A stretch of 64,000 nucleotides of DNA from the human T2T-CHM13v2.0 reference genome, Homo sapiens. Under the pieces are notes generated by a model that had not been told where the DNA came from, ran no database searches, and saw only the letters and a list, made by a program, of their open reading frames with translations. The stretch lies in the NCBI RefSeq assembly GCF_009914755.1, contig NC_060927.1. The stretch is one strand, 5' to 3'. The translations under genes were made by a program, and so were the position numbers. Each line of letters opens with the position of its first letter. Position 1 is the first letter of the stretch. Below are positions 50,145-51,545 of the stretch, one piece after another.

Positions 50145-50258
50145 ACGTCTCACAACGTTGTTGTTCAGGCTGGTCTCAAACTCCTGAACTCAAACAATCC
50201 TCTCACCATGATGTCTCAAGTAGCTAAGATTACAGACATGCACCACCATGCTCAGCAA
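50145..50258 (-). mobile_element. FLAM/Alu monomer body. Its 3' tail lies at 51546-51563 on the + strand
   Basis: Reverse complement reads gctgagcatggtggtgcatgtctgtaatc...gagaccagcctg...gtgagacgt and is completed by 'tatctcaagggaaaaaaaa' at 51546. Confidence 0.82.
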
Positions 50259-50261
50259 ATT

Positions 50262-50758
50262 TGACTGTTACCTTTCTCTCCTCTGATTTCTCAGAAGGTC
50301 AGATAAACAACTTGATTTCTTTTTTTGTGTTTTTTTTGTTTTTGTTTTTTGAGACGGAGTCTCGCTCTGTTGCCCAGGCTGGAGTGCAGTGGCGCGATTT
50401 CAGCTCACTGCAACCTCCACCTCCTGGGTTCAAGCGATTCTCCTACCTCAGCCTCCCGAGTAGCTGGGACTACAAGTGCCCACCACCACTCCCGGCTAAT
50501 TTCTTTTTGTATTTTTAGGAGAGGCGGGGTTTCACCGTGTTAGCCAGGATGGTCTCGATCTCCTGACCTCGTGATCCACCCGCCTCGGCCTCCCAAAGTG
50601 CTGGGATTACAGGCGTGAGCCACGGTGCCTGGCCAAACAACTTGATTTCACTTGGTGGTGTGGAACTTCAGCATGAGTAATTCCATGTTGGTCTGGTGTG
50701 TTGGCCTCATTGCAGGAGCTCAGTCCAAACCAATGACCTCCTATAAAATTTTTTAACA
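50262..50758 (-). mobile_element. MER72/LTR47-like ERV1 LTR, 5' half (hosts an Alu)
   Basis: Aligns in the same orientation with 33065-33220 ('cagataaacaactt', 'gcaggagctcagtccaaac', terminal 'ttaaca'). Confidence 0.85.
50320..50634 (-). mobile_element. AluSc/AluY-like SINE
   Basis: Antisense dimer with perfect 15-bp TSD aaacaacttgatttc at 50305-50319 and 50635-50649. Confidence 0.92.
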
Positions 50759-50963
50759 GGACAAATGCTGGCTTGGTGCATGGCTTGGAGCAGTGGTGCA
50801 CCTTGCATTGTCATCCACGCCCATGGAAACTGCGAAGATGGAGTTCTAATAGAACACAGGTAGTTATTGGCTCAACAGAGCACTTACACTCCTTACAGAG
50901 ATGATTTTGTTATGTACCAGGCATGAAACCTGAGGGTGACTGTGGGTGATGGAGAAGTGGAAG

Positions 50964-51545
50964 TGAGAGGTGACAACGTGCTGGCAGCCCTCGCTCACTC
51001 TCAGCGCCTTGTCTGCCTCGGCGTCCGGTCTGGCCATGCTTGAGGAGCCCTTCAGCCCTCCACTGCGCTGTGGGGGCCCCTCTCTGGGCTGGCCGAGGCC
51101 GGAGCCGGCTCCCTCTGCTTGCAGGGAGGTGTGGAGGGAGAGGCCGCAGGCGGGAACTGGGGCTGCGCGCAGCGATGGCAGGCCAGCGCGTGTTCCGAGT
51201 GGGAGTGGGCTCAGCGGCACTCGGAGCAGCTGGCCAGCGTGGCTGGGCCCTGGCAGTGAGGGGCTTAGCACCCGGGCCAGCAGCTGCGGAGGGGGCGCCG
51301 GGTACCCCAGCACTGCCGGCCTGCCTGCCCCACGCTCGAATTCTCGCAGCGCCTCAGCCGCCTCCCCGCCGGGCAGGGCTAGGGACCTGCAGCCCGCCTT
51401 GCCTGAGTCCACCCGCGGTGGGCTCCCAGCGGCCAAGCCTCCCTGACGAGAGCCGCCCCTGCTCCGCAGCACCAGGTCCCATTGACCACCCAAGGACTGA
51501 GGAGTGCAGGCGCTCGGCACAGGACTGGCAGGCAGCTCCATCTGC
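50964..51545 (+). mobile_element. LTR12 5' part (GC/CpG-rich U3), inverted relative to its 3' part
   Basis: Starts tgagaggtgacaacgtgctggcagccctcg (LTR12C-type 5' end) and ends abruptly at ...ggcagctccatctgc. Confidence 0.93.

What the first reader, a model, noticed from the sequence alone, without database searches (positions are those of the whole stretch)
50145..51545. A 1.4-kb inversion revealed by three split transposable elements and reverse-complemented TSDs
Seen in the sequence: (a) The LTR12 3' part is on the minus strand at 49372-50144 and its 5' part is on the plus strand at 50964-51545. The broken ends (...ggcagctccatctgc | tgcgggatccac...) are adjacent in the LTR12 consensus as I recall it, apart from about 8 missing nt. 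(b) The 4 bp outside the two LTR12 termini are cttc (49368-49371) and gaag (50960-50963), exact reverse complements, as expected for one TSD after a flip. (c) A FLAM body is on the minus strand at 50145-50258, while its tail 'tatctcaagggaaaaaaaa' starts at 51546 on the plus strand. (d) The ERV1 LTR hosting that FLAM is also split (50262-50758 minus, 51565-51847 plus). An intact family member at 32789-33220 shows the halves are normally contiguous, and the split copy's flanks (reverse-complemented gtcc, and gccc) match 3 of 4. Reverse-complementing 50145-51545 restores all three elements at once. Inference: the inversion postdates the LTR12 insertion, so it is recent in primate evolution. No inverted repeats flank it, which points to end-joining or template switching rather than NAHR. 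It could be lineage-specific or polymorphic.
Basis: partly seen in the sequence, partly recalled or inferred. Interest (0 to 1): 0.85.

Follow-up and report, generated by a model that had tools for sequence, protein, structure and literature searches.

The report
Small 1.4-kb inversion splitting old repeats
A 1,401-base stretch of human chromosome 3 was flipped at some time after an old retroviral LTR inserted there, by breakage and rejoining without homology; this is an ordinary kind of small inversion, and it happens to carry the first splice sites of an uncharacterised non-coding RNA.

Summary
Window 50145-51545 (1,401 bp) is inverted relative to the arrangement that its repeats record.

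- **LTR12 solo LTR.** It is cut into a 3' part (49372-50144, minus) and a 5' part (50964-51545, plus). In 12 of 12 intact genome copies these parts are colinear. 7-9 nt are missing at the break.
- **LTR12 target-site duplication.** The 4-nt duplication now lies on opposite strands. 7 of 7 intact copies have a perfect 4-nt duplication.
- **Alu-like monomer.** It is cut at the other break, and its ~11-nt target duplication is also on opposite strands.
- **Older LTR hosting the monomer.** Its pieces are colinear in 10 of 10 intact copies.
- **Breakpoints.** There are only two (LTR12 and monomer), not three.
- **Junctions.** No inverted repeat sits at the breaks and the junctions share at most 1 nt. 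A non-homologous origin is supported, with end joining favoured.

What is not shown is "recent". The LTR12 copy is old (about 16% all-site difference from its nearest copies), so the bound is only about 30 My or less. A 41-genome inversion call set on this assembly lists nothing here, which argues against a common polymorphism. Orientation in other primates could not be tested.

This is a clean but ordinary member of a known class. Interest is low to moderate.

The parts
49368..49371 (+). One copy of the LTR12 4-nt target-site duplication (cttc)
   Evidence: sequence; 7 of 7 intact copies have a perfect 4-nt duplication.
49372..50144 (-). LTR12 solo LTR, 3' part: U3 tandem repeats (about 49730-50106), promoter, R/U5. 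It lies outside the inverted segment.
   Evidence: 84-85% identity to the best full-length matches., D1-D4: tandem units with 41-nt spacing. CCAAT, GATA-type and G-rich motifs as described in PMC11853044.
50145..51545 (.). The inverted segment, 1,401 bp. Junction 1 is 50144|50145 and junction 2 is 51545|51546.
50145..50258 (-).
   Evidence: aligns to the left half of 5 of 5 window Alus at 61-68 identities per 86-97 columns..
50259..50269 (-). Left copy of the monomer's ~11-nt target duplication, inside the inverted segment
   Evidence: 10-12-nt overlap in family coordinates in 7 of 9 intact LTR copies..
50259..50758 (-). One portion of an older ~430-bp LTR-like repeat (family not named here), interrupted by a full Alu at 50320-50634.
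   Evidence: D8: perfect 15-nt duplication at 50305-50319 and 50635-50649 flanking the Alu.
50759..50959 (.). Single-copy spacer inside the inverted segment. It holds annotated lncRNA exon 50760-50859.
   Evidence: the query 50759-50963 has 1 match in the genome, which is itself. Hub annotation.
50960..50963 (+). Second copy of the LTR12 target duplication, now read as gaag
50964..51545 (+). LTR12 solo LTR, 5' part (GC-rich upstream U3), inside the inverted segment
   Evidence: 80-84% identity to 39 genome copies over nearly the full length.
51546..51567 (+). 3' end and A-rich tail of the Alu-like monomer, outside the inverted segment
51568..51847 (+). Other portion of the older LTR-like repeat. 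Its first ~11 nt (51568-51578) are the right copy of the monomer's target duplication.
32789..33220 (-). Intact member of the same older LTR-like family (TG...CA ends), used as the in-window reference

Best explanation
This is a real germline inversion of 1,401 bp. In the ancestral chromosome a minus-strand LTR12 solo LTR lay about 0.2 kb from an older LTR that carried a full Alu and an Alu-like monomer. One double-strand break fell in the LTR12, just upstream of its U3 tandem repeats. The other fell near the 3' end of the monomer. The fragment between the breaks was rejoined in reverse by non-homologous end joining, with 7-9 nt lost at the LTR12 break and 0-3 nt at the other. The derived orientation is the one carried by this assembly and is probably fixed, or at least the major allele, in humans.

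Shown: the flip, its two breakpoints, the small loss at one break, the lack of homology, and that the flip is later than all the repeat insertions it cuts or carries across.

Inferred: the repair pathway, fixation, and the age (any time since the LTR12 inserted, at most about 30 My). My odds are about 0.95 that the inversion is real, about 0.65 for end joining and about 0.25 for a replicative template switch.
For: - Colinearity of both LTR12 halves in 12 of 12 intact copies.
- 7-9 nt are missing at the LTR12 break.
- The 4-nt target duplication is reverse-complemented, and the family shows perfect 4-nt duplications in 7 of 7 copies.
- The older LTR is colinear in 9 of 9 genome copies plus the window copy.
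- The monomer's ~11-nt duplication lies on opposite strands, and the monomer body and tail are continuous.
- Homology to other LTR12 copies ends within 3 nt of each junction in 39 of 39 and 39 of 39 scored matches.
- No inverted repeat pair sits at the breaks.
- Reading the junctions gives at most 1 nt shared between the joined ends and no inserted bases.
- Among polymorphic human inversions made by non-homologous mechanisms, small deletions or insertions on the derived allele are usual: 18 of those in PMC6748972 (passages).
- The 41-genome call set on T2T-CHM13 has no entry here, although it lists chr3 events of 377 bp and 2,102 bp.
Against: - No outgroup or second human genome was compared, so the ancestral state rests wholly on repeat structure, and fixation rests on the absence of a call.
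- An 8-nt loss with blunt joins does not exclude a replicative template switch. PMC6748972 attributes such small indels to possible FoSTeS/MMBIR events.
- The copies that best match the 3' half (L019-L023) have 5' halves only 69-80% identical to the window's 5' half, so the two halves do not share the same nearest relatives. However, copies L002-L008 match both the 5' half (82-84%) and the 3' terminal ~220 nt (83-89% in 5 of 7). I therefore see no sign that the halves come from two elements.
Confidence: 0.65

Rival explanations
1. The same inversion arose in one replicative event (FoSTeS/MMBIR-type template switching: the fork switches to the opposite strand and back) rather than from two breaks and end joining.
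For: There is a small loss (7-9 nt) at one junction. PMC6748972 suggests that non-homologous inversions with small indels may arise this way (passages).
Against: Junctions share at most 1 nt (read against the intact copies), whereas template switches usually use 2 or more nt of microhomology. There are no templated insertions or duplications at either junction.
Confidence: 0.25
2. Assembly artefact: the segment is mis-oriented in T2T-CHM13.
For: None was found. Only one assembly was available.
Against: The segment is 1.4 kb with unique junctions and a single-copy spacer and has no flanking repeats to confuse assembly. PMC10150506 (passages) contrasts GRCh38, with 26 misorientations across 41 samples, with T2T-CHM13, and no call is listed at this place. 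The annotated lncRNA exon 50041-50297 crosses junction 1, and the splice sites inside the segment are canonical on the plus strand (hub annotation, a predicted model).
Confidence: 0.03
3. No inversion: two separate truncated LTR12 fragments, and unrelated monomer and LTR fragments, happen to lie in this arrangement.
For: The two LTR12 halves have different nearest relatives.
Against: The two broken LTR12 ends abut within 7-9 nt of family coordinates. The outer flanks form a perfect 4-nt reverse-complement pair. The monomer, its 11-nt duplication and the host LTR are all explained by the same flip, with the broken ends physically adjacent at both junctions.
Confidence: 0.01
4. NAHR or retrotransposon-recombination-mediated inversion between inverted homologous repeats.
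For: Both breaks lie in repeats.
Against: The broken repeats (LTR12 and an Alu-like monomer) are unrelated. No inverted repeat pair sits at the two breaks (I1-I10), and there is no minus-strand self-match within 49000-52500.
Confidence: 0.01

Closest known systems
[quoted passage not shown] 2019, PMC6748972), e.g. HsInv0098 on chr3 (950 bp)
   Same: It is small, has two simple breakpoints with no long inverted repeats, and has a small deletion on the derived allele. A unique origin is expected. (Passages; supplement rows.)
   Different: Those inversions are polymorphic in humans and were genotyped. This one is not in that set: the two chr3 entries lie at about 41.3 Mb and 109.2 Mb (12 of 14 supplementary files searched). 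It shows no sign of polymorphism in the 41-genome call set.
Retrotransposon recombination-mediated inversions between human and chimpanzee (Lee et al. 2008, PMC2603318; search listing and abstract only)
   Same: The breakpoints lie inside retroelements.
   Different: That mechanism needs two homologous L1 or Alu copies in inverted orientation. Here the broken elements are unrelated and the joins are blunt.
Evolutionary micro-inversions found by genome alignment in mammals (recalled literature; the search lists related papers, none read)
   Same: It is a kilobase-scale fixed inversion in non-coding DNA, recognisable from sequence alone.
   Different: Here it was detected within one genome from split, nested repeats and strand-swapped target duplications, not from cross-species alignment.

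Membership tests
Simple two-breakpoint inversion of non-homologous origin | One flip makes every interrupted element colinear, with the broken ends adjacent at both junctions | tested here: met
   12 of 12 LTR12 copies and 10 of 10 older-LTR copies.
Simple two-breakpoint inversion of non-homologous origin | No inverted homologous repeats at the two breakpoints; at most a few nt of microhomology | tested here: met
   Junction reading: 0-1 nt shared.
Simple two-breakpoint inversion of non-homologous origin | Outgroups or other haplotypes carry the uninverted order | not testable with these tools
   No primate or second human genome is held. PMC12058530 curated only events larger than 10 kb (passage).
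NAHR-mediated inversion | Highly similar inverted repeats spanning both breakpoints | tested here: not met
LTR12 (ERV9/HERV9 solo LTR) | TG...CA termini and a 4-nt target duplication | tested here: met
   window GAAG/GAAG in LTR sense; 7 of 7 intact copies have perfect 4-nt duplications.
LTR12 (ERV9/HERV9 solo LTR) | U3 tandem repeats of about 41 nt carrying CCAAT, GATA-type and G-rich motifs (as described in PMC11853044) | tested here: met
D1-D4: 41-nt spacings, 7 CCAAT-bearing units; the motifs are read on the minus strand; passages.
LTR12 (ERV9/HERV9 solo LTR) | Both halves belong to one element or subfamily | tested here: inconclusive
   L002-L008 match both halves at similar levels. L019-L023 match the 3' half best but the 5' half worse. 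No subfamily library was available.
Free left Alu monomer (FLAM) | About 120-135 nt homologous to the Alu left arm only, with an A-rich tail and a target duplication | tested here: met
   a better and longer match to the left half in 5 of 5 Alus; the tail; the ~11-nt duplication. The name and subfamily are recalled and were not tested against a library.

The most novel reading that the evidence does not exclude
The inversion is confined to the human or African-ape lineage, and it assembled the 5' end of lncRNA LOC105377039, about 30 kb upstream of MYRIP. The flip put an LTR-derived splice donor (50298) and a single-copy exon (50760-50859) on the same strand as the downstream exons. It also placed them next to the antisense side of the LTR12 U3 enhancer repeats, where the annotated start (50041) lies. 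On this reading a small structural change created a new transcript structure.
Probability: 0.2. Interest if true: 0.4.

Novelty: new member of a known kind. Interest (0 to 1): 0.2.

Why it matters
The value is mainly methodological. Nested repeats and their target-site duplications allow a kilobase-scale inversion, its exact breakpoints and its relative age to be read from a single genome. Events of this size fall below the cut-off of the curated ape inversion maps, which cover events larger than 10 kb (PMC12058530).

Locally, the flip separates the upstream U3 part of an LTR12 from its enhancer repeats and promoter. It is also a precondition for the annotated exon 1-2-3 chain of an uncharacterised lncRNA. 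Nothing suggests a wider functional or medical consequence.

Tried and rejected
- **Earlier scan notes** were not open.
- **Literature on the gene name.** LOC105377039 appears in 0 papers.
- **Searches for this inversion in catalogues:**
  - Giner-Delgado 45-inversion set: 12 of 14 supplementary files searched, and the only chr3 entries lie elsewhere.
  - Porubsky 2023 T2T-CHM13 call set: no number beginning 3976-3981 in any row, and the only one beginning 3982 is on chr9.
  - Feuk 2005 human-chimpanzee inversion tables and the ape T2T tables could not be opened. They may bear on lineage specificity, although the ape tables cover only events larger than 10 kb.
- **Paralogue with the ancestral order.** None exists; the spacer is single-copy.
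- **NAHR** was rejected.
- **Dating the inversion itself.** No handle was found. Only the LTR12 age bounds it.
- **Same-subfamily test.** Comparing the top hits of each half is biased by how the copies were chosen, so I leave it inconclusive.

Full report
**What is there**

The window is T2T-CHM13 chr3:39,742,001-39,806,000 (hub note; confirmed). I read 49200-52100. I then compared the region with the rest of the window and with intact repeat copies from the same genome.

**LTR12**

The stretch 50964-51545 (plus strand) starts with the LTR terminus. It matches 39 other genome copies over almost its full length at 80-84% identity (40 scored of 2,693 candidates).

The stretch 49372-50144 (minus strand) ends with the other terminus. 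It matches full-length copies at up to 85% (40 scored of 4,111 candidates).

- In 7 of 7 intact copies fetched for the 5' half (L002-L008), the two window pieces map to adjacent, colinear parts of one LTR. In the window they have opposite relative orientation.
- The same holds in 5 of 5 copies fetched for the 3' half (L019-L023). In L023 the 5'-half match stops 119 nt short of the break.
- Between the two broken ends, the window lacks 7 nt relative to L005 and 8 nt relative to L006. That script printed five loci and then stopped on L007.
- The match coordinates of L019-L021 give about 8-9 nt missing.
- The flanks are cttc at 49368-49371 and gaag at 50960-50963. In LTR sense this is a perfect 4-nt duplication.
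- All 7 intact copies examined have a perfect 4-nt duplication.

Those features are U3 tandem repeats of about 41 nt with CCAAT, GATA-type and G-rich motifs (PMC11853044, passages). All of them are visible on the minus strand at about 49730-50106. No repeat library was available.

**The older LTR and the Alu-like monomer**

A ~430-bp LTR-like repeat with TG...CA ends has an intact member at 32789-33220 and many genome copies (40 scored of 851 candidates).

- Against the window member and 9 of 9 genome copies (L010-L018), the split copy falls into three colinear pieces: 50635-50758, 50259-50319 and 51568-51847. The first two lie on one strand and the third on the other.
- Pieces one and two are separated by a full Alu (50320-50634) with a perfect 15-nt target duplication (D8).
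- Pieces two and three overlap by 10-12 nt in family coordinates in 7 of 9 copies. In the other two copies the short match stops before the end. That overlap is the target duplication of the element inserted between them.
- The inserted element is an old Alu-like monomer. Its body is at 50145-50258 on the minus strand, and its last bases and A-tail are at 51546-51567 on the plus strand.
- The body aligns over almost its whole length with the left half of 5 of 5 Alus in the window, better than with the right half.
- Set beside Alu left arms, the body's end and the bases at 51546 onward continue one another, with 0-3 nt missing.

**Reading the event**

There are two breakpoints, 50144|50145 and 51545|51546. 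At each, a broken LTR12 end is joined directly to a broken monomer end.

One flip of the 1,401 bp between the breakpoints accounts for all of the following:
- the LTR12 halves;
- the LTR12 duplication on opposite strands;
- the monomer halves;
- the monomer duplication on opposite strands;
- the orientation clash within the older LTR.

The older LTR is not a third break.

- For 100-mers across each junction, only the locus itself spans the junction. The other 39 of 39 scored matches stop at query positions 48-53 and 47-51 respectively, with the break after position 50.
- The 205-nt spacer inside the segment is single-copy, so there is no paralogue to confuse the picture.

Chance or independent fragment insertions cannot reasonably give this set of coincidences.

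**Mechanism**

No inverted repeat pair lies at the two breaks. The self-comparison shows no minus-strand match within 49000-52500. The broken elements are also unrelated to each other. This excludes NAHR and retrotransposon-recombination-mediated inversion.

I compared the junctions with what intact copies carry on either side. The joined ends share at most one base, nothing is inserted, and 7-9 nt are lost at the LTR12 break.

I therefore favour two double-strand breaks with the fragment religated in reverse by end joining (about 0.65). A replicative template switch cannot be excluded (about 0.25). Authors of the human polymorphic set attribute small indels at such inversions to possible FoSTeS/MMBIR events (PMC6748972, passages).

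**Age and status**

The flip is later than the LTR12 insertion. It is also later than the insertion of the monomer and of the older LTR.

That bound is loose.
- The 5' half differs from 7 copies by K2P 0.189 over all sites and 0.073 over non-CpG sites. This is the same as those copies differ among themselves, at 0.201 and 0.076. This is an old LTR12.
- The review gives about 30 My for the arrival of ERV9 and about 6 My for the end of its spread.
- 'Recent' therefore means only 'within the last about 30 My or less'.

Evidence on polymorphism comes from an inversion call set built on T2T-CHM13 from 41 genomes with assembly-based, Strand-seq and optical methods.
- It has no entry at this place.
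- It does list chr3 events of 377 bp and 2,102 bp (PMC10150506: passages; two supplementary files searched).
- This argues against a common polymorphism or a CHM13-private orientation. It is an absence of a call, not a genotype.

Other catalogues gave no information on this locus.
- The two chr3 inversions of the 45-inversion genotyped set lie elsewhere.
- The ape T2T paper curated only events above 10 kb.
- The supplementary tables of the ape T2T paper and of the 2005 human-chimpanzee study could not be opened.
- No primate genome is held here, so the branch on which the flip occurred is unknown.

**A point against neatness**

The copies nearest to the 3' half (L019-L023) share its tandem-repeat layout at 87-89%. 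Their 5' halves are only 69-80% identical to the window's 5' half.

Copies L002-L008 match the 5' half at 82-84%. They match the terminal ~220 nt of the 3' half at 83-89% in 5 of 7.

I read this as mosaic variation among LTR12 copies plus differences in repeat number, not as two elements. A subfamily library would settle it.

**Side observation: the lncRNA**

The hub's annotation places lncRNA LOC105377039 on the plus strand.
- Exon 1 (50041-50297) starts in the antisense side of the LTR12 U3 repeats and crosses junction 1.
- Its donor (gt at 50298-50299) lies in the inverted piece of the older LTR.
- Exon 2 (50760-50859; ag at 50758-50759, gt at 50860-50861) lies wholly in the inverted spacer.
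- Exon 3 (51849 onward; ag at 51847-51848) lies outside the segment.

This exon chain can exist only in the present orientation. The model is a predicted one, and no paper mentions the gene.

**Verdict**

The event is a clean example of a known class, a small inversion of non-homologous origin. I found it in none of the catalogues I could open. Its interest is low to moderate unless it proves lineage-specific and tied to the origin of the lncRNA's 5' end.

Noticed in passing
window 50041-50297, 50760-50859, 51849-52005: The annotated lncRNA LOC105377039 starts antisense in the LTR12 U3 repeats and crosses junction 1. It uses a donor (50298) and a whole exon (50760-50859) that lie inside the inverted segment, with canonical ag/gt sites on the plus strand. 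The exon 1-2-3 chain needs the derived orientation.
   Followed up: partly
window 50755-50759 and 51844-51848: Both outer ends of the older LTR now read ...aca|g on the plus strand. Each serves as the annotated splice acceptor of an exon (50760 and 51849).
   Followed up: no
window 50918-50969: An exon of another annotated transcript ends 6 nt into the LTR12 5' terminus, where the LTR's first bases give a gt donor on its sense strand.
   Followed up: no
window 50305-50649: A full Alu (50320-50634, minus) with a perfect 15-nt target duplication sits inside the older LTR, wholly within the inverted segment. It gives no information on the timing of the flip.
   Followed up: yes
window 49372-50144 and 50964-51545; loci L002-L008, L019-L023: The nearest genome relatives differ between the two LTR12 halves. 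Copies sharing the tandem-repeat layout of the 3' half have more divergent 5' halves. This suggests mosaic LTR12 variants.
   Followed up: partly
window 50153-50160: An 8-nt perfect palindrome lies 9 nt inside junction 1, within the monomer. It is probably chance.
   Followed up: no
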